A DNA stretch of 62,140 bases, the filler included, from Hausera hauseri (Eukaryota): the NCBI GenBank assembly GCA_046269625.1. It is 12 parts of 12 records of this genome, joined end to end, with 100 filler letters (N's around TTAATTAATTAA, not from the genome) between each part and the next. Parts side by side here need not be neighbours in the genome. Positions count along the whole stretch, not along the records: positions 15,911 to 21,093 come from JBJURY010314274.1; 11 more parts are not named here. One strand, 5' to 3'. Of the stretch, positions 1,638 to 56,183 are shown one piece after another. The first letter of the stretch is position 1, and every line of letters begins with the position of its first letter. The position numbers were made by a program, and so were the translations under genes. The notes beneath the pieces are model-generated. The model was not told the DNA's origin. It made no database searches and saw only the letters and a list, made by a program, of their open reading frames with translations.

Positions 1638-1834
1638 TGGATTATACAATATACACATTCACAAGAATACAAGAACGAACTGATTACTTAGAACTTGTAA
1701 ATAGTAGACTTTATTACAAAAGGATTCCTCTAAACGCCCCGTAATCCTTTATATGTGGATACATAATAAGGTTGAAATAATACCCATGTATCCAACATAC
1801 CTAACTCCACTCACGTGGGTATCGGGTAACTTCA
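1638..1834 (-). repeat. Putative 3' LTR of the glycoprotein-bearing Gypsy element
   Basis: On the minus strand, purine-rich GGAAAGGATTATGGGGAAGC is followed by TG, then CATATAAAGG (TATA-like), AATAAA and a CA end. It lies downstream of pol and the accessory ORFs. No second copy is in the window, so the ends are approximate. Confidence 0.45.
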
Positions 1835-1879
1835 GCTTCCCCATAATCCTTTCCACTTGATACCCAACAATTATACTTC

Positions 1880-2676
1880 CGTATAGACAATAGAGCAATT
1901 CTTCACGAACAAGTTCGATGTCTCTTCCATTGATTAAATGCTCCTTAATTCCTGTAACTTCTGAATAAGTTTCGCGTACCCGTTTTCTGGGACTGATGAT
2001 CTTTGTGTAAATTTCGGATCCTATCTCTCGTACTGATACTCCAATTGGAATGTCGTCCTCATCATCTACTTCTCCGTAGTTTACGGATGATTCTAGAGTT
2101 TCTGGCGTCTTGTACTAATCGTAAAGAATACAGATGGTCATCTTGATCTTTCTCAGTGGGCCTCTGATTAAACCGTAAGGGTGGCAATTGAATAAATGGT
2201 GCGTCTTCATAGCATACTTCGATCATAAGCTTAACCGGTAATGCGGCAACTCGAAATTCTATTTCGCAATTATAGTGGTGAAAGTCTGTGCTGTTAATTA
2301 GAAAAGTACTGTATCTGCTCTGTCGTCCTTGTGACGTATCCCAATTTTGATCTTTTAATCTATAGATTTCTCCATCTGCTAGATGAATAAATAATTTGGT
2401 GATAAACCGGTTCATATTGAATGAGTTGTCGCAAGGCGCATGCTCGTATCTTTATCGTCCTTCATTGCGTACAATCGTACTGTTCTATTTTCTTATGTAC
2501 TTCCTTTCAATAGTTTGCTTATATTCTACAAAGTTTCTTCCATGTAATTCATTATTGATTTGTCGAAAGATCGATTTTGACTGAGGGATTAACACCGTTG
2601 CACAGTTCTGCAAGAAGTCATCGATACTACGTCGAACTTTTCCCGAATTCGTTTTCTGGATCTGGATACTTACCAT
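1880..2676 (-). pseudogene. Accessory ORF of unknown function between the second glycoprotein gene and the LTR
   Basis: ORF fragments 2485-2676 and 2062-2415 are co-oriented with pol. The ATG at 2676 directly follows an acceptor-like TTAACCTTTATATTTTAG. Confidence 0.4.
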
Positions 2677-2840: not shown

Positions 2841-3900
2841 TTAAGTTTGGCAATTTATGGTAACTAATTGAAATATCGCGATACACATTACCAGCACAAA
2901 TGTTGACAAGCTTACGATCATTATGAGTAATGTAGTTAACCCTTCGGTTTCGGTAGTCGTTATCTCTAGTGATTTCTTGTCTTGTTTTTGCATGCATGTA
3001 ATGCTATTTGTATTTCTTCTAGGGTTTGTACTGCGAAGGTTCGGCTCTGCAGGTGTTTTGCATGTATTTGTATTATATATTCTGTCTTGGTTACTAATGA
3101 GTTGCATTCGGTGTGGTATGAGCCTTTCAATAAAGTTGTTTTTTTATTTCGACATTATAGTTGAGCTTCTCTTCCACCGAAAATATTTTGCGTTGCTGTA
3201 CCCCGCACTTTACAGGGACATTAAGTAATTTCTTTTTGTTCATTTTCTTTGTCGTAGTAAGCCTAACCGTAGTGCTTACTTTCCTAAATAATTGCTCAAT
3301 CTATTTGTTTGAATTCCAGAGGTCAAAATGAATCCTCTATTCATAACCTTCTAAAATCTTACAACAGATCCTAAGATCTTTGTTTTTGATGCTACAGTAA
3401 TTGGGAGTTGGACTTAACTCGTTTATTTTAGTTAATTGGATTAAGATCTCCCGGTTGTTTGGCAATCTTCCGTTTGTATCTATTTGGATACACTTGTTTT
3501 TGTTATCTTCGGAAATACCAACTGTTTTCATTCAACGCCCATCTAATTGGGTCGGTTGACTGTACTGTCACCGAACTCTGTTGCATTGATCTGTTCTTTG
3601 ACGGGTATTACTAGTTTTACTTGCGGTCTTATTGCTCCTTGTGTACGTTCGTAGTTTTTATAGTACATTCGTATTGTGAAGGTATAAATGTTTCCATAAT
3701 TTATGACACATCTTTCTCGAGCTCCATACGGAAAATCGCAATGGGTCATTACTCGTTTATTGGCGTTTCATAGAACTACTTGGTATTACTGATTTTCTCA
3801 CGGTTCCGTCCGTCTTAAATAGCACACAGTCTCGTCTTGGATCTATACTTTGGACCTTGAATCGATCTAAGGTGCTTAAGTCGTTCCTTTTTGTTCTTAC
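2841..3900 (-). pseudogene. Cys-containing type-I membrane glycoprotein (GP2) downstream of integrase
   Basis: Fragments DCVLFKT, THCDFPYGARERCVINY and KCIQIDTNGRLPNNREILIQLT..PNYCSIKNKDLRICCKILEG, with a C-terminal hydrophobic anchor LTTLLIMIVSLSTFVLVMCIAIFQLV. Aligns with 29580-30365. Confidence 0.65.
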
Positions 3901-3904
3901 TAAT

Positions 3905-5647
3905 TTATCTTTCATCCATTTGTTTAGTTGTTGCATCCATCTTGCTTGAGCCTTGGCTTTCGGAATATATGAAACTATCAGTGATAGTGCTAAGACTATT
4001 TGTATGTAAGACGGGTCTGGTAACTATAGACGAGTTTTTGGTTTTTCTACATTTCGTATCCTTTATACGCAGTTGGTGTCGTTTATCCGGTTTTATCTCC
4101 GCTTTCACTACTCGTTGCACTGACACTACTTTCTTTCCGTTTTTATTGATATATACGGTAGTGGGTGTGATTCTGATAACTTCATTAGGTCCTCTTTCGG
4201 TACGCGTGAGCTTTAATAATGTGCCTTTAGCTACGGGATAGTACACAAACTCAATCTCCGTTCCTTAAATAGTGCGGTTTTGCCTTATCGTATTGCTTCT
4301 TAAATCCTTGGTATTCTAATGATAGTGTCTTTGCTACTTCCCAACACTTTTGTAGTCTGACCTGTAGAACTTCTACAAAATTTGGTTCTAGCTCTTCAAT
4401 GTTTGCTTCATACGGAATCATTCCTAAGTCCGTAGGTAATGCCAATTCATATCCGATACTTTCTTTGCTTACGTCTGTTTTAATAATAAACGGTAAGTTA
4501 AAATCAGGATATCTCAGTACTGGTTTGCTAATTAGTATCTTCATTTTGTCGAACGCCTTTTGTTCAATATCGGTCTATCTCCATTTCGTTCCCTTTTTTA
4601 ATAATCGGTATAATGGCGCATTGATTTTTGAGTTATCCGGTACGTAGGTAGCACAGTATCCACATAGACCTAACCAATGTTTCAGTTCCTTTTGATTCTG
4701 AGGTTCCATACACTCCGAAACTTTATTTAGTAATGATCTATCCGGCTTGGATTCTCCTTCGCCAACTATATGACCAAGATAGCACACGGCGTTTTGAGCC
4801 CATCTACATTTCTTTGAGTTCAGCTTGAACCCGGCCTGTTATAATCTCATAAGAGTGTCCTCAATATCCTTCAGATGCTCTTTTTCGTCTTTTGATGCAA
4901 TCATTACGTCATCTAAGTACGCAAATGCATGTTCAAGTCCCATTAGCATTTTATTCATTCTGGTAAATATGGCTGGGCCAGTGGTAATTCCAAATGGCAT
5001 AATGTTGAATTCGTATACGCCATCATGAGTTTTAAACGCTGTTTTATAACGATCTTCATCCTCAATCTCTACATACCAATATCCGGATTGTAAGTCCAGA
5101 GTGGCGAACCATTTCGCTCCTGAGAGCCTATCTAGAGCCTTTTTCACAGATGGTAAGGGAAAAGAATCTTTCATCATGAGAGTATTCAATGCTCTATAAT
5201 CAATACAGAACCTGTTTCGTGATACCTTTATTTTTGACCATAAGAATAGGTGAATACCATGACTGGAAACTTGGTCGAATTATATCTGCTTTTAACATAC
5301 GTTCTACCTCCTTGGTTATCTCCGGCCTTAGGGAACGCGGTTGCTGATACCATTGTGGCATTTTCTGTTCCTCGATATCAATTTCATCGTTTGAACCAGG
5401 CTTTTTCTTAAGTGGTATAGTTAATTTTAACGTCTTTGCTCGGCCTGTCTTCGTCCTTCGCAATGCTTGATTTATATCGACATAATAATTTGTAAAACTG
5501 GCAATAAGTTTCGGGTGAAAACTTCGTATCAACATGTGGTGGAAATTTAGCGTATTTATACGGTTTCTCTTCAACCGTTATTGCTGATACTTTGTATGTA
5601 TGCCCTAGAGTAGTGTTAGCGTATAATCTTACTGGAATTTGAGCCTT
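3905..5647 (-). mobile_element. Ty3/Gypsy pol remnant (RT, RNase H start, integrase GPY/F tail); most of RNase H and integrase deleted
   Basis: WFATLDLQSGYW, KTAF, MPFGI, AYLDD, YLGHIV, PVLRYPDFNLPFIIKTD and GPNEVIRI. 5560-5647 closely matches 15911-16100, so it is the same family as the contig-4 element. Confidence 0.92.
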
Positions 5648-13069: not shown

Positions 13070-15579
13070 TGTCACGCATTTTGCTGCCCGCCCCGCCGAG
13101 GCGGAAATCCCGACCGCCAATTCGGTGCCGGTGGGTCGGGATGCACCTTCGATGTCGGCCTTAAGTCATGCCCCCAGGCGCACCACTGCTCCCATTTCAA
13201 TTCTTTTTTATAATAGCATTCACATATATACCCTCCATACTACATACCCACACATTATAAACCCTTCAGACCCACATTTCTTCTTTCCTTGGTTCTTCAG
13301 ATTTCCATCTCACTCTAAATGGAGCTATTATACACCTAAATGAAACTTTACCTTCCTTTTCCAATCACGCTTGCTTCAACATACATTTCCGTATCCGTAG
13401 TGGAATGAATTCTCCACCAATTACTGACACCACGGATACAACCACCACAAAAAGCCAATGCCCATTCTCTACAACACCAGACCAAATCATCCACTTATTT
13501 TAACCGAATCAAACTCTTCCAATAAAAACCCAGTTCATACTTCTACACATTACACTGACTACTTCATAGATTATGAAAAATTCAGTAAAACGTGGCTTCA
13601 CTTCTACCAACTCTGGCTCCAGTTTAATGGTATTACAGACTCCTTATCTAAAGCCCACAGCTTACTGTATCTTCTCCCCAGCTCAATGAAAGCCTCAATA
13701 CATAACCTTCTTGACATCTTCCAACACCCTTACCTTTATACACAATTATTCTACGCTGTCTTAAAACAGACCGAATTTTCCATTGACTCCATAATGCAAC
13801 ATTTCTTTAACGAAAATGCACTGGGCACAAAAATCCAGTGACTTCTTACGCACCTTGTTAGCACATTTGCGTACTCCTGGCGTCAATAAAGAGCATAACC
13901 CAGACCTACTACGCCACTATTTTTTAACGCACTGCCTGTTCAAATTCGGGCCCTTCTTACCGTGGTGGGTGACTCCACGCCGCTTGATAAATTGGCCGAA
14001 TTGGCCGATAGGACATACGATGTCCTACACACAAATTCCCAACCATTAGTTTCAGCAGCAGTTTGAACTAAAGACATACAATCAAAAACTACATCCATAG
14101 AACAACAACTTACTCAGCTACATGCTGAAAACATAGCATTACATGCAACAATCAACATCAACAATAAGTTAAACGAGTTGTCCCTGTCCCGACGAGGGGG
14201 TTTTGCCGCCGACCGTGCCCGTTCTGTGTCACGAAACCGCTCACCATCGCCTGCGCGTTTGTCGATCTGCTATTACCACAGCAGAATCAACACTAATGCC
14301 CAGAAGTGCTGCCTAGACTGTCAGTTCTATAATAAGAATTTTTCCTCGGACACCGTTATCTGCATTTATCATGCAAGGTTCAAAACTCAGTCCCGTAAAT
14401 GTCTTCCAGATTGCTCCTTCAAATCCAATACGAATGAAGGACGTACTGCCTTTCCTTCTAACAGTCGTCCTCATTCACCTTTTCCAAAAAACTAAGTTCG
14501 CCGCCAGAAGTCACGGCAAACTCTGGCGAAGGCACTCTTTCACATTCTAATTGCCGACACATCTCTTTCGCAGTCTTCACGCTAAAGGCTGCAATCACTG
14601 CTCTTACTACGCAATCTGTTGATTTTCTCATCGATACAGGCGTAGCGATTTCTTTATTACCATAACCCTTTCCTGTACAAAATTCTCCATTCAGAATTAA
14701 GCTCTTATATACTGATTCAGGCTAGCTGCTGCGCATCTCGGGCACGGCTACATTATCTTTAACTTTGCCTGGTTTCTCTGCGCCTTTCCGCTGGACGTTC
14801 ACAGTCGCTAACATCCAGTCGGCAATTCTTGGATCTGAATTTCTTTTACATTACAATCTACTGGTTGACTGCAGTCAAAGATGTTTGAGGAGAGGCACCG
14901 TTGGCGACATTTCTGGACATGTAAATAGCATTTCGACTAGCGCGCGGTCAACCGAAATGCGGAAGTCAATATTAGAAAAGTCTATGAATAATTCAATTTT
15001 TTTAACGATAATTCTATTCGTAAATTTTTAAATAATAATACTGACATTCGATCGAAGTTTAATGTTGACAAGTGTGGTACTGCTACCAACGTTCATTTAT
15101 TCGACGCAAATACTTCAGCCAACACCATTTTCAATTCAACAATTTTGCACCAAATACCAGCTAACTGCACATTATCTAACAACTCAGACATTGCATCTGC
15201 TACTACTCAAGCCGTTTCACCACTTCCACCGAATCTTTCACAGCTACCTACAACTTTACAACAGTTCATCAACATATCTTGCCCACGCGTACTTAAGAAA
15301 ACCGTACTTTTACTCCCGCAAACAGCACCTTACACCACACACAACACCGACGTCCAATACGCCAAACAGTACGGCCTCTGTCATTTCGTCGTAGACAAGC
15401 CGTAGAAGCCGAATTTCTTGAGGGAGAACGTTCCGGCATTGTACGCCGTTCCAAATCTCCTTGGTCATCACCGTTACACGTCATACAAAAGAAGGACGTC
15501 ACCTTTACACCAAGCGGTGACTACCGACAGCTTAATAACTTGACTATTATGGACGCATATCCTTTACCACTAATCAAAG
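13070..15579 (+). mobile_element. Gypsy 5' half: GC-rich leader, Ubl-Gag, frameshift signal, aspartic protease, RT start
   Basis: Ubl end FNIHFRIRSG (to 13404), Gag WLQFNGITD..PY, two CxxH-x8-C-x3-C motifs, AAAAAAC-TAA at 14486, FLIDTG, SPWSSPLHVIQKK and DYRQLN. Confidence 0.9.
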
Positions 15580-15810
15580 AGTAGAGTGAAAATATGCTTT
15601 CGGTCCCACCCCGGGGGAAAACGATAAATCCATTTTGCACGTGTCGATCGATAGTGCACACTGTGCACTATCTATCCAAAAAGTGCCTAGCAACGGTTCC
15701 GCTAGGCGCCGTTGCTAAGGACATTTTTGCACTTTTCACTTATCGATCGCTGCACAGTGCAATATTGATCGAATCGATCGGGACAAAGTGCTAATCGATA
15801 GAGCACATCA
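15580..15810 (+). mobile_element. Palindrome-rich insertion in RT; possible Polinton terminal inverted repeat
   Basis: RT homology stops at 15579 and the new sequence begins AGTAG. Hairpins at 15650-15672 (11-bp arms) and 15688-15717 (9-bp arms). Confidence 0.45.
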
Positions 15811-15910: not shown

Positions 15911-16700
15911 TTGTGCGATTATTGAACGGTACTTACATAATAATTCATAGAACTTGCAATATGCTTCAGGAGAAAATTTGGTTTCCACGTAAGGCGGAAA
16001 TTCAGCACACTTGTATGGTTTCTCCTCTATTGTCACTGCTGATACTCGGTAAGTGTGACCTAAAATAGTGTTAGCGTGCAATTTTACGGAAATTGGTGCA
16101 TTATTCACTAATCTGATAGGTATTCGTCCCGTCACTACTCTACACAAAATATTACTAAACATCAGGTTTGGATCAATACTCCCTTGGGGCTCGAAATATA
16201 CTAGTAAATCCTTGTCTTGACGGATTTGTGCGAAAATTATCATCTCGGTTCGGAACGGAATGTCTTCATCTACTGGGATCCATACTTTGCCTGATATTCT
16301 TTCCTTTATTACCTTTGTACCTTTTATTGGTTCAAGTTCAATTAATTTTTTATTATGCACATCGATTGCCATACCTGGTATCTGTTTTAATATATCACAA
16401 CCTAGTACTACATTGCCTGTTAACTGGTTCATCACCGCAAATTCATGTTGAAGTGCTTAGCCCATCATATAAATGGTAGGAGTCCATTTAAATTTTGGCT
16501 TCGATACTTGCGTAAATGCACCTACTCTTCCAGGGTCTGATGATGGTAGTGGGCATAATTGCTCTCTTAGGGTGGTTGGTAACTATTCGTATTTTATAAA
16601 CGACTTCTCTGATCCGGTGTCGATTAATGCATACACTTCCCAATCTTCAATGTGTATTTTAGCGAAAGGTCTCCCTTCTACACTATCTTTGACCGTTTTA
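15911..16700 (-). mobile_element. Gypsy aspartic protease and protease-RT linker
   Basis: VYALIDTGSEKSFI (DTG at 16614-16622), VVLGCDIL and IPFRTEMII..GRIPIRLVN. Confidence 0.88.
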
Positions 16701-16989
16701 TAGTAGAGACCCTATATCCATTTATCGTTATTTCTGGCGATGAAATAATATCTTGCCTTAATTGTCCTAATTCTCCGTTCGGGTACAAGTCGTTATTTGT
16801 TACCTCAGTAACGCGACTGTCAATGAGTGGTTCCTAGGGTAGTGGACTCGAGATCGAACACAGTTTCGGGTTCTCCCAGATCGTTGATTTCGATTCTATG
16901 TGCCGTGGTATCCTTTTTGTGTACAATATTCTATGGTCGTTTTCTGTTGGTACTTGGTGGATAACATTCATTTTTTGTAGTACCCCATA

Positions 16990-19607
16990 TTATTTTGTTT
17001 TTTCATAAGGGTCTTCATAACTGATGGGCTTCTGATAGATTTCGGATTTACATGATACGATTGATTTATGGTCGCAGTCTTCATATATTGGTGCTGTTGG
17101 CGGCATGATGGGTAATGGCGCGTTAATCACTAAATACATCTCGTGCATCTTCATTTTGTAACTTCCTTCTCCTCCCTTAGGCTCGTCATCATCTGAATCA
17201 TCTTTCCGTACTATTGTCTTTTTATTTTTGCGTTTAGTAAGGATCAAGAGTCTGCCTCTTTGTTTACGATTATAATATCCGACATGGCGTTCTACATCAT
17301 TTTTCTATCGATTTTCTTCGTAGGCCTTAAGCATTTTTCCGAAGGACGTAATAATTGCAGTCAAAATTTTGCAGGAAAATCCTGTTAACATAAATATTTT
17401 ATATCCGTTGATAATGGCTTGAATTACAGCCTTAACTAGCTGGACTAAAAAGTAAATGGCTAAAAATCCAGATGCGGCCTGTCCAAAAATCAGAAATCTT
17501 CCCCCAATCTTATACAATATTTCTAAAGTTACTCTTTGATAGTGGTTAGCGCCGAGTAACGACTCCCATTTTGCTTGAAAGCGAGTATCGTCCATTACCA
17601 TGAACATGGCCCGGTTTAGTTCATAAGTTCTTTGGTGCGGAAACGCTAAAAATTGCCTAAAGGCTTCTATGTCCTTTGGTCTATAATTTCTTTTGTTGGC
17701 TGTCTTCAAACTTTTCCTCTGATAATCCTTTGATTAGGTTTGTTCCAGTTAGCTTGCTAGGGGCTGCGATAGCGCCTCCATTAGGTAAGCTTATCCAATC
17801 CGTACTGCTACGTCGAAACATGGGTTCATCTAGGCTTGTTTTGCATTCCTGCAGTATCGTTGGTTCAGTTGAATTTGCCAATAATACTTTAGTGAGTGGC
17901 GTCGTTAGTCCAGGCATGTTGTCATAGATGACTGGTAATTCTTGCATGCACCTTTTCTCTTCTACGTTAATCGGCACGTCTCTTTTTTCGCATTCATAAG
18001 TTAGTAGTACTTCTCCAGTAAATCGTCCAAAGACGCCTTGGTATAATTGGTGATGCCAATTCTGGGTTGGCACAAATTAAAGTCAATTTGGTTCTCATGA
18101 TTTCAGTATCTAATCTGCAGTCATTTGTTATCACTTTGTGATATAGCCCTGCTATTCCGGTTTGTCCTTTGTAATGAAAATAGTCGTCTTGATTTTTGAG
18201 GTAATCCTCAATTCGTATGTCTTGCGTTTTCAAATCATACGTTTTCATGTTAATTTTAGTTTCTGCTACGAAAAATGCCTCATAATTTGTGGCATACATT
18301 ACTACGTCGCACCATGTTATCATATCTTTTCTAATAAACTTCAATCCATGCGTGTCCGATATCAATATCGTTGGTGTAGAATGTTCTATCATGTCTTTCC
18401 TTGATCTCGTATTAGTGTGTAATTTATTTGTATAGCGTTTTCCGGTTGTCTCATTGAATTTCAACTTTTTGATTTTAATGAAGTTGCACTCTCTCTTGGA
18501 AGGTGGACTCAAAACAACAACTTAGCTTCGGCACGTACAAGCGCCATCTTGTATATGACATTTTTAATTTTCAGTAAATAGTTTGGTAACACTATGAAAC
18601 ATTGCCTTTAAGGATCTCAACTCGGTTTCGTAAAAATCTACCACTACTATTTCTCCTTCTTTTCCTTTTCAAGTATCATATTCGGCTCCGACACAATAGT
18701 CCGTGTGCATATTTAGTTTCCCGATTGCCACTTTATAGGCTCTATTAATCTTTCCTTCTTGGGCTTCTAACTCCATACCATCCCAAACCATTTTCCCGGT
18801 CAGCCGGGATACTAAACAGTGTTTTTTAACCACATTCATTGGTATCAATGGTATGGTTGGTTTGATAATTGAAGAATGCCCGTGCATATTACCACAGTGG
18901 AAAACGCTGCGAGATCTCCGTATCACACATTCCGTTGCATCCATTGCAATTAATTCCCGTTGTTGATATAATATATATCCTTTTTCAATGGTCTCAAGCT
19001 TATGAGGTCTTGCATCTTCGCATGTTTCTAAATCCATTAAGGAATATTTTTGACCTACCTTGAATTTATCACAGTCGTATACGGTAACTGCTCCCATTTG
19101 CTTCACTAACATCATTATCGTCAGTAGGTTGATTAACCAATTCGATCTGTTTTCCTTGTTCAAGGAGATGTTTCGCGTCATATCTTCTAATTTGTTAGTC
19201 CCTGTTGCATCTTCCTCTTTTTCGAATAATTTAGCCCATTTTATTTCTTTGGGTATTCTTCTGGCAGCTTTTCTACCTAATCCAATTGTCTTCTCAAATT
19301 TGTTTTCTCGGAGCGGGTTGATCCTTACTGCTAGGTATATCAAGACTTTCCTTAATTCTTCCGTCGTATTGTATATCATAATTCTATCAATTACTGTTTC
19401 GTCAGAAAGGGTGCTTTTAGATAACTTAAATTGTGGAGTCTTCATCGTCCGGGCTATATTATATATTAGTCTTTCTTTCTCAGACAATATGCCGCCTTGA
19501 CGTCCGGTGTAGTTGACTATCCTAATTAAGTCTCGCATTAGCTCAACCAATTCTTTGTTGTCTGAACTCGGGATCGGCACCGATAATTGTCTCAATTCTC
19601 TAATCAA
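16990..19607 (-). pseudogene. Chuvirus-like (class III, gB-type) envelope glycoprotein with N-terminal extension, internal signal peptide, TM region and cytoplasmic tail
   Basis: Signal LLTIMMLVKQMGA/VTVYDC, then YSLMDLETC, ECVIRRSRSVFHCGNMHGHSS (cf. chuviral HCGMHSH.S), YCVGAEY, GEVLLTYEC, RCMQELPVIY..LTTPLTKVL and TM FGQAASGFLAIYF; frameshifted. Confidence 0.85.
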
Positions 19608-19630
19608 GTCTGCATTATAATCGATTTCTT

Positions 19631-20011
19631 TTATTTTCTTGGTCTTCCGACTGGTAGTTTTGGTTTTATTGATGGTAAAGTTTCGCTTAACGGAACTAAA
19701 TTCTTGTCGTATTGCGGATTGTCGTCATCCGTCTGTAAGTATTTAAAGTACATTGCGACATCTTGAATCCCCATAATTTTTCCAACACAATGTTTTGTAT
19801 GCGCCTTCCTTATGGCTTCGTCTTTGGTTTGCTCACTAGTAATTATTGCTATTATTCGATTCGCTTCGAGTGGTATAACCCCTACGTCTATTAAAAATTT
19901 CAACTCATCTAGTTTTCTACCTCTAAAATAGAGTCGATAATTAACTTCTTCCCTACCATTCTTATTCATTATCCGCTGTTTTATGTCTCCAACGGTGGTA
20001 AGGTAGTGCAT
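19631..20011 (-). pseudogene. Ubiquitin-like domain ORF upstream of the glycoprotein ORF
   Basis: TTVGDIKQRIMNKNGREEVNYRLYFRGRKLDELKFLIDVGV aligns with ubiquitin [41 protein letters not shown]; there is no diglycine end. Confidence 0.65.
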
Positions 20012-20604
20012 TCGAATTCCTCGTTATCTATTTCTTTAAATGATACTTTCAGCAGGTCCCTCAAAAATACGCACGAACATTGATTAATTACGCAAGATTT
20101 ATCTTCCGCTTGCAAACCATTTAACACAATAAACCTTTTTATGCCAGGAAGAGGTGTTGATGGGTCGATGCATTTTGCTCCTTGACACTGACGGAATCTT
20201 CTCTTATAACCGACACCGCAAGTCGTTGTACATGGTGACCATTCAGACCATTTAGACCAAACGTTTTGTCCAGCTGATTAAAAATTATCATATAAAGATA
20301 AAAGGTTTCAGGCAATGTAAAATCAACCTTGACATTTAGGACCAGTACAGACCAATTGACCGTTTGTACACACGCTGCAAGCATTATTCATACGGTTTAG
20401 TGTGAAATGAAAATTACCAAGTTTGACAGTCGAAAAATACTGTAGAATTGGCCTTAACATGATTGGCGTCTAATCCGGTTGTTGGTAACGTTCTTGATCT
20501 TGAAAAAGGTACAATGGTAGTAAATCCTTTGCCCGGTATTTGATTTCTGCCTCCACCTGGTGGATAATCTGAACCACGTCCTGGAATCAGGGTATTGGAT
20601 CGGC
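19981..20604 (-). CDS. Partial host gene with VWC-like and thrombospondin type-1 (TSP1) domains (SCO-spondin/mucin-like); three exons visible
   Basis: Removing GT-AG introns 20375-20417 (43 nt) and 20274-20327 (54 nt) gives FDCQTCVCTNGQLVCTGPKCQAGQNVWSKWSEWSPCTTTCGVGYKRRFRQC..EDKSCVINQC. An upstream acceptor lies at 20605. Confidence 0.8.
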
Positions 20605-21275
20605 CTGAAAGTTATAGATATATGATGATTTGCTACACTATATTATTTGAAATTATGTCAGTTTCATAATATAGTTAGTTTGAAGCACATAGTATATCAA
20701 ATTTTATGAAATCGCAATCTATTTATTCAAGGTCATAATTATAATAAACCATGAGTCACATCATTAACAACATGTCTTTCCTAGTATAATTAAACATCAT
20801 TTTATTCAATATTTACAAATCCAGACAATTTTAAATTTTTTTGCGTTCAAGATACTTTCAATTGTACGTTAACAATACGGCAGGTCATATTAAAGTCAAG
20901 TTATGCACAATAGATTGATGGGATATATAAATTCAAACTCGTGCTCTTTTGAAATAAGACAACATGTGGAACATGGCAACATAAAGTTGAAAGCGTAAAA
21001 CGTGCTTCATACAAACAAACAAAAGTCATAGTACGCATCGGTCTGTTGGTGCTTCTTGGGTCACAAAATGCATATTCAGTGCATCTTTGTGTANNNNNNN
21101 NNNNNNNNNNNNNNNNNNNNNNNNNNNNNNNNNNNNNTTAATTAATTAANNNNNNNNNNNNNNNNNNNNNNNNNNNNNNNNNNNNNNNNNNNNAGTGCCC
21201 CGATTTGCTCCACTTCTATCGAGGCTCTGCCTTTTGGGGCAACTGACTCCTGATCGGATTCTGTTTCTTCTTCCT

Positions 21276-22342
21276 CTACGTTTGCGACTTCCCGCGTCTT
21301 CTGTTTACATTATCTCCGTACCTTCTTTTGACTCTGTAGGTATCCCATCCTGGTTTTCTTCTCATCTCCGGCCTGGTGTAGCACTCCTTTTCGGTATATC
21401 CCCTATGGTGACATCTTGCACAGCTAAGGTTAACACAATTTCGTCCGATGTGCCCTAGCTGACTACATCCGTAGCACCTTATTGGTTTTCTTTCGGGACA
21501 CTGTCTGCTTATGTGCCCTTCTTTTAAGCATCCAAGGCATTTAATCGGTTTCTGTGTGGTGCACGTTCTACTTGTATGTCCTTCCTTCTGGCACGTCCAA
21601 CACTTTAATCTACTATTTGGTGGTCTAGTAGGGGTTGTGTTGATTCTAGGAACGGGTTTCCTGATATTTGGTGCTGCCACTTCCTGGTAGCTTCTTCTAC
21701 CGATCTCCGGATATTCCTTAACCTTGTTTACTTCTTCTGTCTTAATCTTTACCTCGTGTAACTTCCGTATTTTCTCCTTTATTGTTTCCGCGTCTCGTTT
21801 GTCACCGAGGCATATTTCTGTCCCAATCTTTCTACTGTTGCAACATTGGAACAATAGTTCCTCTTTCAGAACCTCGCGTGAAAGATTGTGCTTCATTTAT
21901 ACAGAAGTTTCTCGATTGCCTCGAAGTACACCTCCGGTTCCGCCCCATTCATTTTTTACTCGACTGCTTCTTTCAGATCTTCGCACAGCGTTGAGCATCG
22001 GGCGAAAGCCTTCCATGGTCTGTTTTAATATCCACTTATTTTCGCATCTACTGCCTCGTAACTGTCTTGTACTTCTTCCTCCAAGAGGCATTCAACCATG
22101 ATTTCCCGTTTCGCCACCCGAGTGTTCATATATTTGAAGAATTTTTCACATGCTTTAATGAACTTCTTCACGTCGTCGCCTTTCCTGAATTTGTTGAGCA
22201 ACAATTGATTCGCGAAGGTGTCCATTGTGGCATAAGTCGCCATGTTGGCAGCGTGCGCATCCACGCCGTCCACGTCATCGCCCAGCTTGAGTAGGGTTGG
22301 TATGTATGCTGAATCAGAATTGGATCGTTTGAAATTACTCAT
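21276..22342 (-). mobile_element. LTR-retrotransposon gag with four CCHC zinc knuckles
   Basis: KFRKGDDVKKFIKACEKFF capsid-like N-terminus; CWTCQKEGHTSRTC, CLGCLKEGHISRQC, CYGCSQLGHIGRNC and CARCHHRGYTEKEC. Confidence 0.8.
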
Positions 22343-22489: not shown

Positions 22490-24760
22490 ATTTTCGTTTT
22501 CGAATGTATCATCACAACCACTGTGTATGTCATGCCCGTCAAACAGGAACTAATATTCACTGATTGGTCAAAAACAGACAGTCCGGCATATGTAGTATAT
22601 GCCGATATCGATGCTGTCTTACCACAGCACAACATATATGACCAAAAACATGTTTCAATCGCCGTCGGTATGTTGGTTGCCCTAATTAAAGCTGCAGGTC
22701 AACCTCAATATTGTTTTCCACTGATGGAATTGTGTACGTCATTTCTTGCTGCAGTTGCAAACCACAGTGGAAACTAAAATCGCACCCTGGTACAGTATAA
22801 ATAGCAATAAACCCTTGACGTGGACAAATGAAGATGAACACCAGACGTTTGAAGTCACAAGTGAATGTTGCCTATGCCAGAAAATATTACCGTTTGACGC
22901 TCTGGAGCGGCTTGTACCGGATCATGATCATTTTACTGGTCGATATCTCGGAGCGGCATGTAATTCATGCAATTTAGCAGGGCTTGTGCAACCATTCTTG
23001 CTGGTGGTATTTCATAACTTCAGGGATTATGATTGCCACCATATTTTGAAATGGGCAATAAACGGATTTCCGCACTGGGAGCTATCCATAATTCCAACTA
23101 CGATGTAGAAATACCTGTAACTCTCTGCTCGTATAAACCGGTTCCAGGTACGCTTCCTTGATTCATAACAATTTCTCAATGAATAATTGGCAAAGCTGGT
23201 AAATGCCTTGCCAATGTGCCGATAGCACTGACAGTTCCCCACACATCGCATGCCGCAAAGGCATATTTCCATATATCTTTGCAACATCATATGCGCGACT
23301 CTGGACAGCAGAGGAATTACCGCCCCGATGGACAGTTATCGCTGAGGATGAATACCGGAAAGCACAGAGGTGTTGGACAGAACTCGGCTGTAGAAACATG
23401 TTGGATTACATGCTCAAGTATCTTAAACTGGAAGTGTACTTATTAGCCGATGTGTTCCAAGCGTTTTGAGCGAAAGCGCTGGCTAAAGATAGGCGGGAGC
23501 CAATCAACTTTTATTTCATACCGGGAATGAGTTAAGCGTCAGCTCTAATGTCATTGGATCGAGACACTGAGCTGCTTTAAGATCCGGAAATGTACTGGCT
23601 GTTCGATGTTGGTATTTGCGATGGCATGATATTTGTCAACAAGCATCAGGTCGGTGCTACAGATACCCCATCACTGACGTATATTGATATTAATAACATG
23701 TACAGCTGGGCGCTTTCGTAACCCTTGCCGTACGGTTCATTCGAATGGGTTGTCGGCAGACAAGATCTGGACGACATAATAATGGTCAACCTACCACGAG
23801 CAGACATGGCAGGTTCAGTCAGATACCTGATGGAGGTTGATCTCGTAGTACCAAATGAGCTGCATGACGTTTTGGACGATTTACCGGTCGCACCATTTAA
23901 CCTATGTCCGCCAGGCTCAAAAGTGAAGAAACTGCTTATGACGCATGAACCGAAGCTGAATTACGTGGTCCATTGGCGTCTGCTACAGTTCTTCATGCAG
24001 CTCGGTGTTCGTGTCACACAGCTACATCATGCAATCCGATTTGCTCAGGCTCCAATATTCAAGGCGTACATAGATGAAAATTCGGAGGAACGAGCTGCAG
24101 CTTGTACAAAGTTCGAAAAGGACTACTACAAGGTGAAAAACAATTCCCTGTACGGAAAGACAGTGGAGAATCTGAAAAGACGGCTCAATGTACGCCTATT
24201 CAATAGCAAAAGCGGTTGGTCACGTACACGAATAAGGCGCAGTTTCGGCGGTCAATGCGCATTGCCAATGGATTGGTTGCCGTGCTCTTAAACAGAGACG
24301 TCGTACTGGACCGGCAAAGTTACATCGGACAAGTGGTATTGGACTTGAGTAAGTTGCGGATGTATGAGCTACAGTATCGCGATATGGCATGTTACCGGCA
24401 AATATTTCACAACTGTGACATTAATATACTTGCCGGTGACGGTTTTTTCCTTCAGCCAAAAACGTTAATTGTGAACAGCTACAGCAGAAAATGCAGTTAG
24501 ATGGATTAATGGACATGTCCAACTATCCACTGGATCATTCGTTGTACAGCAGCGCAATCACCGACAAAATCGGCTGCTCAAAGAATGAAAGTGAAGGAAG
24601 GGAATGAATATTCCTATGCCCAAAGTGCTACAGTCTTCTGCCGGACTGTGGACCAAAAATGCGAGCAAAAGGAGTCCATCTGAGACAGACGAAAATCGAC
24701 CACGGTGACTATCGCCGTATATATGAAGAAAAGCAGCAGCAGGAGGACAATCAGCGGCTG
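22490..24760 (+). pseudogene. Polinton/Maverick protein-primed DNA polymerase B
   Basis: VVYADID, DHDHFTGRYLGAACNSCN, VVFHNFRDYD, RKGIFPY, YIDINNMY, KVKNNSLYGKTVEN and YIGQVVLDLSKLRMY; many stops. Confidence 0.93.
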
Positions 24761-25253: not shown

Positions 25254-26055
25254 CCGCCATATCCCAAGGAGGAATTTATGCGCAACAGAATTTAAAGGAC
25301 TATCGGCGGATGTTATTGTTTCCTCAGCAGAGACAACGAGTTAACGGAATTAACAAGAAGAGTGATGTGGGACGGAGAAGGATCACCACAATGGGAAAAA
25401 ATAATGGGAAAGGACTACTTAAAGAAAGTAACGAGGAATGTCATGGAAAAGATGTGGGGAAAATTTTTGTGTTTTGGTCAGGCTGCTTCAGGATTTTTAG
25501 CCATATATTTTATCATCAGTGCTTTACGGACAATATTTACTGCACTGGGTAAAGCTTACGGAATACATGCAGCAGTAGGTTGCTCATGGAAAATCCTCCT
25601 AGCAGTAATACCGGCGGTTGCCAGTTGTTTTCTAGCAAACCATGACGCCAAATGGAAAAAAAATTCTTAAAGGAAGGAATAATGATATTGACAAGAATTC
25701 ACCATATAATACCCTAAACGATAAAAATGATGATGATGAAAATAATTCAAATGTTAAATTGAGACGTGGTAGATATTTAACAAAACTTAGAAGATTTTCC
25801 TTAAGATCCCGAAGACAGAAGTATAAACGGAAATTGGTTACTGATTTACCTCAGTTACATCCGACAGACGAATACCACGGACAAATATATAGCAAACAGA
25901 TTCTAAGTCTTTCGGCTCCTCAATATGTGAAACACGGAGGAATGTACCTCACATATCATATATTACGCGTAAAACAAGATTATGAAGAAAAACACGCGTT
26001 ATATGTTCGTGAATCCACATGTAAAACGAATGATAAAAAGGGCCCCAGTCGGTGA
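25254..26055 (+). pseudogene. C-terminal part (TM and cytoplasmic tail) of a chuvirus-like glycoprotein, directly upstream of pol
   Basis: MLLFPQQR..WEKIMG..GKFLCFGQAASGFLAIYF..GCSWKIL aligns with 17305-17709; FGQAASGFLAIYF is identical. Confidence 0.85.
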
Positions 26056-29000
26056 TTAGACCAGAAATAGACACTGAAGTAGATGGACATCCCTTAACAG
26101 CTTTAATAGATACGGAATTTACTACTACAATAATAGGAAAAAGTCAATTGCCTAAAGAATTAGCAAGAAAATTACGAAAGCCAGAAGAAACGTTAATTAA
26201 CGTTGGAGCGTTCGGTATGGAGGAGGAAATAAAGACAGTCTTAGATGCGAAAATTAAAATCCATGACCAGATAATAAACCATACGATAAGAGTGGCCAAG
26301 AACTTAACCAACGAAATATTGATCGGATGTGATGTATTACAGCAACTGGATAACGTGTATATAGATGTCAAAACTGGCCAGCTTAAAACATTCGGAAATC
26401 GATATGAAGGATCAGTCTCATTAACTAAAGATGTTGTGATTCCGCCACGTTCTGAGATAATAGTATGCGGCAAGATAAAATATACATCACCGATGAACTA
26501 CGTACACTTTGAACCATTCCCACAGATAATGGAGAAATACAACATCCTTGTTGCACCACACATAGACAGGATAAGAGACGGAAAAATTCATTTGAGAATT
26601 TGCAACACAGGATCAAAAGCGAAACGGCTGAACAAGAATATGAGACTTGGGCAAGCCATAGGCGTCGAAGAAATATCAAAAGGGACAGTTAACTCAGTAA
26701 TCACGGAAGTGGAAGAGATAGAGAAACTGATGATGAAGAAGTTGAAAGGAAAAATGAATAAGGGTAAAGACGAGAAGGAAATTACCCGCATTGATTGGAA
26801 AGAGAAATTACAAGACTGTAACATATCTAATGAAGAAAGAAGAATGCTCATCCAGCTACTGAAGAAAAATAATAATCGATTCGCCCAGAATGATTACGAT
26901 TTGGGAAAGATGAACGTTATACAACATGTGATTAAGTTGAAGGAAGACCAAAACAAGCCTATAAAGAAGCGACCATATTGACTGGCATATGATAGAAAGG
27001 AAGAAGCTCGTAAAATTATAAACGAAATGAGGGGAAATAAAATAATACGACCTAGTTGGTCCCCATGGACGGCTCCAGTAGTGATGGTGAAAAAGAAGGA
27101 TGGAACTATGAGATTTTGTATAGATTATAGAGTATTAAATTAAATTACGAAAAAAGACACATATCCGTTGCCAATGATCGACGAAATATTAGATAAGTTA
27201 CATGACTCAACTATATTTACCACCATCGACCTACAAAAAGGATATTGGCAAATTGAAGTAAAGGAAGAAGATAAGCCGCAAACAGCTTTTTTGATGGGTG
27301 AAGGGTTATGGGAATTTAATAGAATGCCATTTGGATTAAAGAGTGAGCCCCCAACCTTTCAAAGAGCAACAGAACTACTGCTTTTAGATGCACCACACGC
27401 TATGGTATACATAGATGATATAATTGTAGCATCGTCGGATTTTCAACATCACCTGAAAGATCTGCAGGATCTCTTTGATAGATGTAAAGTAATGGGTTTA
27501 AAAATAAACCCAAAGAATGCTCATTTGCCCAAACCGAAGTCGATTTTCTCGCACATCAAGTTGATAGATATGGTGTGAAACCTTAAGACAGACTACTGAA
27601 CAAAATTCAAGATTTCCCAAAACCTACTACCGTTAACGAACTACGCAGATTCTTAGGACTAACAAATTACTACCGAAGATTTATAAAAAATTTTAGTAAA
27701 ATAGCCAAACCATTGTACGAGTTGTTACGAGAGGATTTGGAAAAGGTGATATGGACCAGTGATTGCCAGAAGGCTTTTGAAGACTTGAAAGAAAGATTAG
27801 TGAGTGCTCCTATTCTGATTTATCCTGATATGACTAAACCATTCATATTAGCTACAGACGCAAGCGACTATGGAATAGGAGCGGTGTTGTCACAAAAAGG
27901 TGAAGATGGTAAAGAACATCCAGTTGCCTATGCGTCGAGAAAACTAAATAAACATCAAAAGAAATACGCCGTCATTGAAAAGGAATTACTAGCAATAATA
28001 TTTGCCTTAGAAGTATTCTCACCGTATATTAGTGAGAATAAACCCTTGATAATATACACAGACCATCGACCACTACAATGGCTGAAGAAACACGAGAATC
28101 CCAATAGCAGACTATTACGATGGGCTTTAAAACTCCAATCTTATACATTAGATTTTCAGTATAAGCCCGGCACGCGAAATGCAAATGCGGATTACTTATC
28201 CAGGTTGCCGCAAAAAGAAGCAGAAAAGAAAGAGGTAATTGCAGAAGTATGGAGCATGGAAGGATCGGTCGAAAAGATAAAAGAGAATCAACGAAAAGAC
28301 GAGGAAATAAAAGCCATTAGAAATTACATACAAAATAAAATTATACCAAAGGATAGAGAATTAACTCGTCATTTAACCAGATTTGGCGATGCGTATGAAG
28401 AAAAAGATGGATTTTTATATTATATTCATCAAAATGGACCTGTGCTAGTAATCCCAAAGAAGAATATGGCAGTATTACTAACCCAATATCATGATGGATT
28501 ACTAGGCGGACATCAGTCAGTAAGAAAAACTGTAAACAAATTGAAAATAAAATATTTCTGGTCTACGATGGCAAAGGATGTACAAGATTGGTGTAACAGC
28601 TGCAATCTCTGTGCCACACGGAAGAATACAGGATCTAAATTTAAAGCCCCCTGAAAGTGTGGGATAATCCATCCGCCCCGTTCGAATTTACTGCAATGGA
28701 CATAACGGGACCTTTACCATTGACAAGAAATGGAAATAAATATATCTTGGTATTTATAGATTATTTCACCCGATGGGTTTTCGCACTGCCCATGTCGGAT
28801 ATGAAAGCGGAAACGATAGCTGAAAAATTCGTAGAAAACATCATATTTAACTATAGAGCTCCTCGAATTTTGCTAACGGACCAAGCATCTAAGTTAAATG
28901 GCCATGTGACGCAAGCAATATACGATATTATGAAAATATTAAAACTGCGGTCCACTCCAGGCCACCCAGAAAATAACGGAATGGTTGAAAGGTACGTAGG

Positions 29001-29560
29001 AGATCTAAAAGAAAAGCTGCAAACGGTAGTTAATGTAAGACAAGATGACTGGGATGAGTACATTAATGCGTGTGTCTTTGTGAATCGAACGTCTGTACAC
29101 GAAGCCACTAAAGAGACACCCTTTTATATGATGTACCTAAGAGATGCCCGGTTACCGATTGATCTGGATTTTAATGTTAGGCCCATATCTCAGTTAATGG
29201 AGGTAGAAGAATATAAACAATTAATGCAGGAACGTCTCCAATTAGCATATAAAGTAATTAAGGATAACCAGAAGGAATATAAAAGGAAGTATAAAAAGTA
29301 TTATGACGAAAAGACGAAACAACCGATAATTAAAGTGGGAGATAAAATGATGTTATACACACCGTTAAATAAGAAATGAAAGACATCCAAGCTAGGTAGA
29401 CCTTATAAGGGACCATACGAAGTATAAAAAGTAGACCTACCGAATGTATTTTTGAAGAAAAATAACACAAAAATTAAAGTACATCTTAACAGGTGCAAAC
29501 AAGCACATAAGGAAAGCGAATTGAGAAATGATGAACAGGAGTTAGTACGGACCATCAGTT
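26052..29560 (+). mobile_element. Near-complete Ty3/Gypsy pol (PR-RT-RNaseH-integrase) with few lesions
   Basis: [90 protein letters not shown] and YKGPYEV. Confidence 0.95.
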
Positions 29561-29579: not shown

Positions 29580-30365
29580 AACTTTAAGTTACGAAGTAAT
29601 TGGGTGGTTCTGTTTTTTGGTCCTCATAGGAATACCTGGCGTATTTGCTCAAACGACAAAATCATTTGATCCATAGATGGAAATATTCCATTTAAGTGAA
29701 ACGTTAGAAAATAGTCTGATGAGAAACATTGATCATGAGATAACCTATACAAGGAAAGGCCAAAAATGTATCAGATTTACAACATTTGAAAGACTACCCA
29801 ACAAATATATGGTAGGAATTCAAGTAATCCATGAGCATAATTACGAATGAAGCTCTAAACAACGAAAGTATGATTGCGGTCTTAATTATTGGAGGAACAT
29901 AAGGGATTGTATAGTAGACAATTCTGGTAATTATCTCATATATTATGCCCTGATCANNNNNNNNNNTAGTTATCAATGGCAATATACCAAGTGTCAAGGT
30001 ATAATACAAGTCCCTAATAGACGAACAATGAACGTAACCAAACTCAACGAGATAATAGTAACTCAAGTCACCGTTAGGCCGATAGAATTTAAAAGCGGAC
30101 GAACTTGTATCGAAGTTAAAACAATGATAGAGTTGCAAGAGAATAGAGTAATAAGTATAACACTTACTAATGTTCAAAAGAAGCAAAAAATACCCACAAA
30201 ATGCCAATTGTCTGATAAACATCTCCGAGTTTGCTGTAACGCCTTACGAGGAAGAACCTACGACTTGAAATTTATGCTATACGCAAGGATTTAGAAAGCA
30301 TCAAAACATTAACTCACCAAGGGCCCAGAACATATGTTCCACTCAAAAATGTTATTGAACACAAA
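29580..30365 (+). pseudogene. Second membrane glycoprotein (GP2), with a signal peptide continuing from the integrase tail
   Basis: VIGWFCFLVLIGIPGVFA/QTT signal, then KCIRFTT, YDCGLNYWRNIRDCIV and TCIEVKT..NRVISITLT..PTKCQLSDKHLRVCCNALRG. Homologous to 2841-3900. Confidence 0.7.
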
Positions 30366-30465: not shown

Positions 30466-31260
30466 AGCAAATAATCCTTTTGAGAAAGATTTCTTCAAGT
30501 TGAAGAACAATAGCTTATATGGGAAAAGAGTTAAAAACCTGTGAAAAGGTCAAATTCGAGACTGTATAATAATGCTATAAAGCTAGTTACTAAGGAGGCA
30601 CAGTTTAAAAAGAGCATTATTATAGCCGATGATCTAGTTGCTGTTCTTCTCGATAAAGACATGGTCACCTTAGATGGACCCTCATACATTGGTCAGGCTG
30701 TACTTCATCTTTCTAAGTTGAGAATGTATGAGTTGAATTACATTGAGTTGGAGTCATATAGGCACCAGTTCCAGTGTGAACGTAATGTTGTTGCTGGTGA
30801 CACTGACAGTTTCTTTCTTGAATGTCACGGTGTTGATTTGCGAGCACAGCTCTTACCGGCAATGATAGCTAATGAACATTTGGACACTTCGATCTATGAT
30901 AAGAGTGATCCATTGTACTCGATTCGTTTCCCTCTGTAATTGGCAAATTTAAAGACGAAAGTAAGGTCTGCTTTCAATATGAAGAGGCAATTTTTCTATG
31001 ACCGAAATCCTATGCCCTCAAAACCCAAACTAAACCAGTGCTCAAATGCAAGGGCATTAATCTTGAACAGTCCAATTTGCAGTTCAGCAACTACTTACAA
31101 ACATATGAAACAGGTTGCAGCACCATGGTGGATCAGGAACGAATTGGCACCAAAAACTATCAGCTGATGACAATCCATTCGAGAAAAAAGGCATTGGATC
31201 CATTAGATGACAAACGTCAGTGAATAACAAAGAATAAAATTGTCGCATATGGACATTGTT
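30466..31260 (+). pseudogene. Polinton/Maverick pPolB C-terminal part
   Basis: KLKNNSLYGK, YIGQAVLHLSKLRMY, AGDTDSFF, KCKGI and LDPLDDKR..AYGH. Confidence 0.92.
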
Positions 31261-55772: not shown

Positions 55773-56183
55773 ATGACGACAGCAAAATGAAGTAAATTAT
55801 TTTTATGTATTTCTAATATGAATTAATATAGTACATTTCAGATACATTGCGCATTGAATGAAAAGTTGGGAAATTTTTTCAAAGGTGTTTACTCATTGGA
55901 TAGAGTTCCGGACTTATTAAAACCAGGTGCATATGTAGTCAATACTCAAACTAGTAACTTAGGCGGAGAGCATTGGATAGCTATTGATGTTAGATCGAAT
56001 ATTATCAATGTCTTTGATCCATTAGGGATGTACTATCCGCATGCTTTAGTATCGAAACTAGAAAGAATGTCAATACCGGTGGAATATAACAATATTATGT
56101 ATCAGAACCCTCTTACCACACTATGTGGAAATTATTGTATTGCTTGGCTTATTGACCAATATAAAAATGTAATTGGTTTTTAA
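55773..56183 (+). CDS. Adenain-like maturation protease, probably spliced
   Basis: FKGVYSLD, VVNTQ..GGEHWIA, FDPLG and YQNPLTTLCGNYC, so H, D, Q and C are intact. Candidate intron 55792-55841. Confidence 0.85.

What the first reader, a model, noticed from the sequence alone, without database searches (positions are those of the whole stretch)
15911..20011. 'Env-first' Gypsy retrovirus-like element: chuvirus-type fusogen gene upstream of protease-pol
Seen: in two divergent elements on separate contigs (minus 19607->15911 and plus 25254->29560), a glycoprotein with the same TM motif FGQAASGFLAIYF runs through a cytoplasmic tail directly into the aspartic protease, with no gag between them. The ectodomain has chuviral G hallmarks (xYDC, YSL..C, HCG.HGHSS, CxxELPV). 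5560-5647 matches 15911-16100, which links contig 1 to the same family. The composite order is Ubl/helical leader - G - PR - RT - RH - IN - GP2 - ORFx - LTR. Known: env normally lies 3' of pol, and chuvirus-like G capture is described for BEL/Pao elements. Inference: this is an enveloped Metaviridae lineage with an atypical gene order, possibly expressed as a G-Pol polyprotein. The position of gag is unresolved.
Basis: partly seen in the sequence, partly recalled or inferred. Interest (0 to 1): 0.92.

Follow-up and report, generated by a model that had tools for sequence, protein, structure and literature searches.

The report
Decayed Burro-type gag-env-pol retrotransposon copies
These are broken pieces of a retrovirus-like jumping gene whose membrane-fusion gene lies before its enzyme genes; intact relatives put gag first in one long reading frame, a layout already described for planarian Burro elements, and also carry a likely second surface protein at the far end.

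Summary
The glycoprotein-before-protease order is real. Pfam Monjiviricetes_fusion covers profile positions 6-609 of 653 at 19140-17300 (minus), the protease follows, and a relative's model matches herpesvirus gB (E 2.7e-14). But the element is not 'env-first'. Intact relatives have ONE open frame: gag, Zn knuckles, ubiquitin-like, Bcl-2-like, signal peptide, G, TM, PR, dUTPase-like, RT, RH, IN. This is the order published for planarian Burro/GYPSM1 in 2019, and GAG-ENV-POL elements are catalogued in flatworms, nematodes and bryozoans (eLife 2026). Gag is absent here because the copy is cut at about 20060, where it meets a host TSP1 gene with two introns. No LTR could be shown. Two features were not in the texts I could read. 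First, after integrase the same frame goes on into a second signal peptide, FN3-like modules and a TM helix (7 of 7 frames that run past IN have two or more hydrophobic stretches there). Second, a downstream DEDD exonuclease ORF starts behind a splice-acceptor-like site. Verdict: new, decayed member of a known kind; host taxon not determined.

The parts
20070..20604 (-). Host gene exons (Cys-rich module plus TSP1 domain) with two GT-AG introns, 20417-20375 (43 nt) and 20327-20274 (54 nt); not part of the element
   Evidence: Pfam TSP_1 E 2.6e-6; spliced frame has no stop; X1 depth 0-3 against thousands in the element
19826..20060 (-). Ubiquitin-like domain; the first surviving piece of the element (5'-truncated, frameshifted)
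   Evidence: Pfam ubiquitin E 4.1e-4, below the curated cut-off; profile of 7 relatives' Ubl domains hits 20020-19826 at iE 8.6e-6
19634..19648 (-). GRPRK AT-hook-like motif (label recalled), also upstream of G in several relatives
19245..19490 (-). Helical leader, probably a degenerate Bcl-2-like domain lacking the GGW helix
   Evidence: Best window hit of the relatives' profile but weak, iE 0.035; hhalign E 0.0033, probability 9.8%; pairwise scores not above shuffles; same position as in relatives
19083..19150 (-). Predicted internal signal peptide before G
   Evidence: Hydrophobic stretch seen; aligns with the same stretch of P0009
17300..19082 (-). Class III fusion glycoprotein G with TM region from 17487; broken by stops and frameshifts
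   Evidence: PF24664 in three frames; 85 relatives at E<=0.001; relative P0001 folds like herpesvirus gB
16379..16675 (-). Aspartic protease (LIDTG at 16627), with stops
   Evidence: Pfam RVP E 1.2e-4
16001..16291 (-). dUTPase-like domain; contig ends at 15911
   Evidence: Profile of 5 spacers including this one: 16 of 17 PDB hits are dUTPases, best E 0.001
25254..25670 (+). Second copy: end of G with the same TM motif
   Evidence: PF24664 E 2.4e-13
26058..29560 (+). Second copy pol: PR 26058-26351, dUTPase-like 26406-26696, RT 27087-27515, RH 27752-28144, IN 28451-28968 and its C-tail
   Evidence: Pfam; RT nearest to Ty3 RT in the PDB, E 2.9e-32
29600..30365 (+). Predicted second signal peptide and GP2 ectodomain, in frame with IN; cut by the contig end
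   Evidence: Hydropathy; short tblastx match to contig 1, E 0.005; FN3-like profile hit only at iE 1.5
4440..5647 (-). Third copy: end of dUTPase-like region, RT 5213-4764, start of RH; rest of RH and the IN core are deleted
2860..3960 (-). Third copy GP2: FN3-like module at 3142-3059 and TM helix at about 2935-2865
   Evidence: Family profile iE 0.0013; hydropathy; repeated in X1, depth 139-428
1788..2676 (-). Accessory ORF (ATG at 2676 behind a T-rich AG) ending in a decayed, truncated DEDD-exonuclease-like domain at 2063-1788
   Evidence: Profile from L001/L002 exonucleases iE 2.4e-4; Pfam RNase_T on those relatives, E 1.4e-5 and 1.1e-3; acceptor-like context

Best explanation
The window holds three decayed fragments of a Burro-type Ty3/gypsy element whose intact relatives encode gag, accessory domains, a class III fusogen and pol in one reading frame, which is likely cut into parts at the ER membrane. 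Shown: the domain order in relatives, the window's match to it from the Ubl domain onward, and the loss of gag by truncation of this copy against a host gene. Inferred from hydropathy and from known signal-peptidase and retroviral-protease biology: the long protein would start in the cytosol (Gag, Ubl, Bcl-2-like). An internal signal peptide would send G into the ER lumen, G's TM helix would return PR-dUTPase-RT-RH-IN to the cytosol, and a second signal peptide after IN would send an FN3-like ectodomain (GP2) out, anchored by a last TM helix. Signal peptidase would free G and GP2, and the aspartic protease would free Gag and Pol. Gag, Env and Pol would thus be made 1:1:1 on one membrane, which would favour budding of enveloped particles that fuse by the gB-like G. 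Bcl-2-like and Ubl cargo would act on host cell death and ubiquitin pathways, as proposed for Burro. The exonuclease ORF would be made from a spliced RNA. The copies in the window are dead.
For: Of 85 phmmer relatives, 17 are 700 aa or longer. Of these 17, 11 have a protease after G in the same protein and 5 run on through RT; 6 have a CCHC knuckle before G and 0 have one between G and PR. Of 4 metagenome loci, L002 (3703 codons) and L004 (2693) run gag to IN without a stop. L001 (3426) does so from a Ubl at its contig edge, and L003 has gag-Ubl-Bcl-2-like, one stop, then G. AF2 model of P0001 (pLDDT 78.6): all listed Foldseek hits are herpesvirus gB, best E 2.7e-14. Relatives' leader: a 7-sequence profile hits Bcl-2/Bcl-xL in the PDB (E 1e-3 to 7e-3; 58 of 60 rows shown, the other two designed repeat proteins). 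Its AF2 model (pLDDT 80.8) returns only Bcl-2-family chains among the listed rows (best E 0.01). Arkhipova and Yushenova describe the same order for Burro. Schmidtea GAG-ENV-POL env sequences in the eLife supplement share the window's G motifs, compared by eye. In run X1, depth is in the thousands from 15911 to about 20060 with no gap across G-PR, and 0-3 beyond it. All 7 frames that run past IN have two or more hydrophobic stretches after it.
Against: No copy in the window is intact, and none holds gag or an LTR; no LTR pair was found in L001-L004 either (only 15,514 of 16,645 bases of L002's contig are held). The window's own Bcl-2-like domain is only weakly supported. No listed X1 piece bridges the 20060 junction, so it could be an assembly join. 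X1 may be the source sample, and its depth is not a copy number. The fold tests were run on relatives about 30% identical to the window's G, not on the window's own protein. The hydropathy scan missed the pre-G signal peptide in 1 of 8 and the G TM in 3 of 9 intact frames at its threshold. Topology, cleavage, particles and splicing are untested. No RT tree against reference families was built.
Confidence: 0.88

Rival explanations
1. A truly gag-less or env-first subfamily: this organism's abundant family has lost gag, or starts at the Ubl, and borrows Gag from another element.
For: No gag in any of the window's contigs by a 7-sequence profile. The repeat signal in X1 ends at about 20060, right at the Ubl. 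P0003 and P0086 start only 150-210 residues before G.
Against: The window's Ubl is homologous to the Ubl that follows gag in L002, L003, P0006 and P0020. The boundary abuts a spliced host exon with no LTR between them, as expected of a truncation. A drop in depth at the edge of one truncated copy says nothing about other copies. P0003 and P0086 may be called from an internal start.
Confidence: 0.07
2. G is a separate chuvirus-like endogenous viral element, or the 3' env of an upstream element, lying next to a Gypsy pol by chance or nesting.
For: G and PR are in different frames in both window copies; G-only relatives exist (P0036, P0064).
Against: The same junction occurs in two divergent copies; 11 of 17 long relatives and 3 of 4 loci have G and PR in one frame; X1 depth is continuous across the junction.
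Confidence: 0.02
3. A BEL/Pao element like the mosquito chuvirus-G carriers.
For: The G family is shared with mosquito BEL elements.
Against: RT is nearest to Ty3 in the PDB. Pfam gives the Ty3/gypsy-type RT_RNaseH, Integrase_H2C2 and rve set; the BEL-type families I recall (DUF1758, Peptidase_A17) did not appear.
Confidence: 0.02

Closest known systems
Burro / GYPSM1 giant gypsy-like elements of planarians (Arkhipova & Yushenova 2019, PMC6431247, section read whole, figure not seen; Grohme 2018 and Jurka 2007 not read)
   Same: One polyprotein: Gag with CCHC knuckles, Ubi2/SUMO-like, BCL2-like, mononegavirus-like env, PR, dUTPase-like, RT, RH, IN; env in frame between gag and pol; accessory ORFs; decayed copies also reported. 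Relative P0086 (4844 aa) also has ankyrin repeats.
   Different: No BIR or MATH domain in the pieces held; relatives' frames are 2.6-4.8 thousand codons; size with LTRs unknown. The section does not mention a second membrane protein after IN or an exonuclease ORF.
GAG-ENV-POL errantiviruses with HSV/gB-type ENV in Platyhelminthes, Nematoda and Bryozoa (Chary & Hayashi, eLife 2026, PMC13524379: abstract, section 14, part 1 of section 5, passages, searches and two parts of supplements)
   Same: Order, gB-type fold, multi-copy state. The six Schmidtea env rows share the window's G motifs by eye; the bryozoan rows look like a different G subtype.
   Different: The main text has 0 occurrences of Bcl-2, polyprotein, Burro, fibronectin or exonuclease. 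Host of the window not determined.
Non-canonical nematode ERVs (Sacco et al. 2022; not held, seen only as cited in the eLife paper; a continuous gag-env-pro-pol ORF is my recollection)
   Same: env before pol in a metavirus
   Different: Host and G subtype could not be compared
ENV-GAG-POL elements of oribatid mites (same eLife paper)
   Same: env 5' of pol
   Different: F-type env and a short gag between env and pol; neither holds here
Bdelloid rotifer Juno/Vesta elements with DEDDy exonuclease ORF3 (Rodriguez et al. 2017, PMC5408684: abstract and section 3.3)
   Same: DEDD-family exonuclease as a downstream accessory ORF of an LTR element
   Different: Those lack a true env; relation of the exonucleases not tested

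Membership tests
Metaviridae (Ty3/gypsy) | PR-RT-RH-IN order with gypsy-type domains | tested here: met
   Contig 6, Pfam
Metaviridae (Ty3/gypsy) | RT groups with Ty3/gypsy | tested here: met
   Best PDB hits are Ty3 RT, E 2.9e-32, ahead of caulimovirus-type and foamy RTs; a similarity ranking within the PDB, not a tree
Metaviridae (Ty3/gypsy) | gag present | tested here: inconclusive
   Absent from the truncated window copies; present in frame in relatives
Metaviridae (Ty3/gypsy) | Flanking LTRs, PBS and PPT | tested here: inconclusive
   No repeat pair in window contigs or L001-L004; all are fragments
Burro/GYPSM1 | env in frame between gag and pol | tested here: met
   L002, L004, P0014 and P0002; the window copies keep the order but are broken
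Burro/GYPSM1 | Ubiquitin/SUMO-like domain upstream of the BCL2-like domain | tested here: met
   Window 20020-19826, iE 8.6e-6; Pfam E 4.1e-4
Burro/GYPSM1 | BCL2-like domain just before env | tested here: inconclusive
   Met in relatives; weak in the window
Burro/GYPSM1 | dUTPase-like domain between PR and RT | tested here: met
Burro/GYPSM1 | Giant size (over 30 kb with LTRs), BIR and MATH cargo | not testable with these tools
Burro/GYPSM1 | Planarian host | tested here: inconclusive
   A search with a host VPS13 piece found nothing; run label is coded; G resembles Schmidtea envs by eye
Class III viral fusogens (gB type) | gB-like fold | tested here: met
   On relative P0001; window G matches PF24664 over 6-609 of 653
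Mite ENV-GAG-POL elements | F-type env and gag between env and pol | tested here: not met
BEL/Pao chuvirus-G elements | BEL-type pol | tested here: not met

The most novel reading that the evidence does not exclude
Burro-type elements are two-glycoprotein viruses. One multi-pass polyprotein yields both a gB-like fusogen and, after integrase, an FN3-like membrane protein that serves as the attachment or activating partner, as herpesviruses pair gB with separate binding proteins. The spliced slot that carries env in ordinary errantiviruses carries a DEDD exonuclease instead. Support: GP2 in 7 of 7 long frames; all 5 weak PDB hits of the module profile are FN3 proteins (E 1-1.6); Atlas leads to fn3 clusters at 0.86, lead only; 4 of 4 accessory ORF starts follow a T-rich AG against 14 of 1032 ATGs overall, with the pattern set after seeing the sites.
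Probability: 0.3. Interest if true: 0.62.

Novelty: new member of a known kind. Interest (0 to 1): 0.3.

Why it matters
The headline (env before pol) is published, so its value is as a further, apparently abundant and decayed family of Burro-type elements, with intact relatives in unnamed metagenome contigs. What could matter is the rest of the anatomy. A second membrane protein inside the same polyprotein and a likely spliced exonuclease ORF suggest how these elements make and target enveloped particles. That bears on the open question whether Burro-like elements are infectious. I did not find these two features in the texts I could read, but Grohme 2018, Sacco 2022, Lee 2026, the Burro figure and RepBase entries were not available and may describe them.

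Tried and rejected
No whole genome is held for the window. Word-based homolog searches with a G piece and a host VPS13 piece found nothing; the search with the Bcl-2-like profile returned only three proteins already in hand. Scans of viral contigs (139 stretches) and genome contigs (115 stretches) gave no relative. A sequence profile of G found no fusogen in the PDB; only the fold comparison did. The Atlas gave only sub-0.9 helix-turn-helix and hypothetical leads for the window leader. Pairwise scores of the window leader against four Bcl-2-like domains were not above 1000 shuffles. Profiles of the helical domain before the Ubl and of the exonuclease ORF's N-terminal domain found no hit in the window, so that part of ORFx is unassigned. 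Pfam found nothing in GP2 modules. No RNA holder was listed. Three look-ups of earlier findings were empty. I first took the Bcl-2-like cargo as new and dropped this on reading. The TSP1 domain as element cargo was rejected because of its introns and low depth. Gag hidden between G and PR, or after IN, was rejected. Literature searches; 'gag-env-pol' with 'retrotransposon' gave only the eLife paper, and the Burro-name search listed two papers.
Full report
1. Observation. The window is 12 contigs joined by N spacers; no whole genome is held. On contig 15911-21093 (minus), Pfam Monjiviricetes_fusion hits three frames in order, covering profile 6-358, 367-457 and 479-609 of 653, and a retroviral protease follows. 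The copies are broken by stops and frameshifts, so 'directly' holds for order, not for frame. Contig 1 links by a 168-nt match at 74%. The LTR could not be shown: bases 1-2100 match nothing in the window or in the loci.

2. Does G belong to the element? A phmmer search with the leader and G ectodomain gave 85 relatives. Of the 17 that are 700 aa or longer, 11 have a protease after G in the same protein and 5 run on through RT. Three end in or just after G, two are G alone and one is G plus an RNase H piece. L001, L002 and L004 hold G, PR, RT, RH and IN in single frames of 3426, 3703 and 2693 codons. In run X1, which may be the window's own source, depth stays in the thousands across the leader, G and PR. 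So G and pol are one element and, when intact, one protein.

3. Where is gag? It lies upstream. Six of the 17 long proteins have a CCHC knuckle before G and none has one between G and PR. L002, L003 and L004 begin with a capsid-like region and knuckles. A gag profile from 7 relatives finds nothing in the window. The reason is visible: upstream of about 20060 lies a host gene with a TSP1 domain and two GT-AG introns of 43 and 54 nt whose spliced frame has no stop, and X1 depth there is 0-3. The copy is therefore 5'-truncated, or joined there by the assembler; no listed piece bridges the junction. The window's Ubl is homologous to the Ubl domains that follow gag in relatives (iE 8.6e-6).

4. Domains. 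An AF2 model of relative P0001 (62-sequence alignment, pLDDT 78.6) matches herpesvirus gB in all listed rows, best E 2.7e-14. The helical domain before the signal peptide in relatives is Bcl-2-like by profile and by fold (E about 0.01, none under 0.001). The window's version sits in the same place but scores weakly (iE 0.035; hhalign probability 9.8%; not above shuffles pairwise). The spacer between PR and RT is dUTPase-like (16 of 17 PDB hits). RT is nearest to Ty3 among solved structures. After IN, all 7 frames that extend past it have two or more hydrophobic stretches, which flank modules with weak FN3 leads (no Pfam hit). The window has this GP2 in contigs 1 and 6. Downstream, L001 and L002 have a separate ORF with an RNase_T-family exonuclease, whose profile hits window 2063-1788 (iE 2.4e-4). 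Contig 1's repeated part ends there, at about 1700. All 4 accessory ORF starts follow a T-rich AG, against 14 of 1032 ATGs overall; the pattern was chosen after seeing the sites.

5. How it likely works. Shown: one frame with alternating soluble and membrane-flanked blocks. Inferred: co-translational insertion at the ER puts Gag and its cargo and Pol in the cytosol, and G and GP2 in the lumen. Signal peptidase and the element's protease would release the parts, and particles would bud with a gB-like fusogen. The exonuclease would come from a spliced RNA. None of this was tested, and no RNA run was listed.

6. What is known. Arkhipova and Yushenova 2019 (PMC6431247; section read whole, figure not seen) describe Burro/GYPSM1 of planarians as Gag, knuckles, Ubi2/SUMO-like, BCL2-like, mononegavirus-like env, PR, dUTPase-like, RT. 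[quoted passage not shown] Chary and Hayashi 2026 (PMC13524379) report GAG-ENV-POL elements with gB-type env in Nematoda, Bryozoa and Platyhelminthes and ENV-GAG-POL in two mites. Their table has about 36, 10 and 9 such rows, counted from term occurrences, with up to 215 copies among the Schmidtea rows shown. The Schmidtea env sequences share the window's motifs by eye. A DEDD exonuclease ORF is known from rotifer LTR elements. An anti-apoptotic role for Burro1's IAP region is reported second-hand in PMC13465017 (passages). Sacco 2022, Grohme 2018 and Lee 2026 were not held, and figure files could not be read; they may already describe GP2.

7. Verdict. It works like, and very likely is, a Burro-type GAG-ENV-POL Metaviridae element. 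Strict filing under Burro awaits a tree and a full-length copy. The second membrane protein and the likely spliced exonuclease are the parts worth following. Interest 0.3.

Noticed in passing
L001:4754-5310; P0086 near residue 2095: L001 has an extra signal-peptide, FN3-like module and TM cassette between protease-like domains, upstream of RT; P0086 has one more hydrophobic stretch there. The membrane cassette seems to be mobile within the polyprotein.
   Followed up: partly
P0003, P0004, P0006, P0008, P0021, P0025, P0086, L001, L002: Two to seven aspartic-protease-like motifs per polyprotein, some after IN.
   Followed up: no
window about 2768 (bin 2647-2835): A short piece at the end of the long frame, before the accessory ORF, has X1 depth of about 59,000 against 100-400 around it; possibly a cis-element shared with a more abundant subfamily.
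   Followed up: no
P0002: An intact 2627-aa polyprotein of this kind is filed at NCBI as a hypothetical protein of a Flavobacteriaceae MAG; most likely eukaryotic contamination of that bin.
   Followed up: no
L002:11375-12040: A 222-codon ORF with no Pfam hit lies between the polyprotein and the exonuclease ORF, also behind an acceptor-like site.
   Followed up: partly
window 22725-24291, 30535-30939, 55827-56183: Pieces with endonuclease VII, protein-primed-type DNA polymerase B and adenain-like protease hits, suggesting decayed Polinton-like elements.
   Followed up: no
window 50043-53461: Long frames (829 and 327 codons) of a repetitive helical protein with no convincing Pfam hit.
   Followed up: no
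window 21279-22300 (-), 34875-36569, 36685-40991, 13737-15580: Other decayed Gypsy-type pieces, including a gag-like frame with several CCHC knuckles, not linked to the G-bearing family.
   Followed up: partly
P0070: A chuvirus-type G followed directly by a gypsy RNase H piece in one predicted protein.
   Followed up: no
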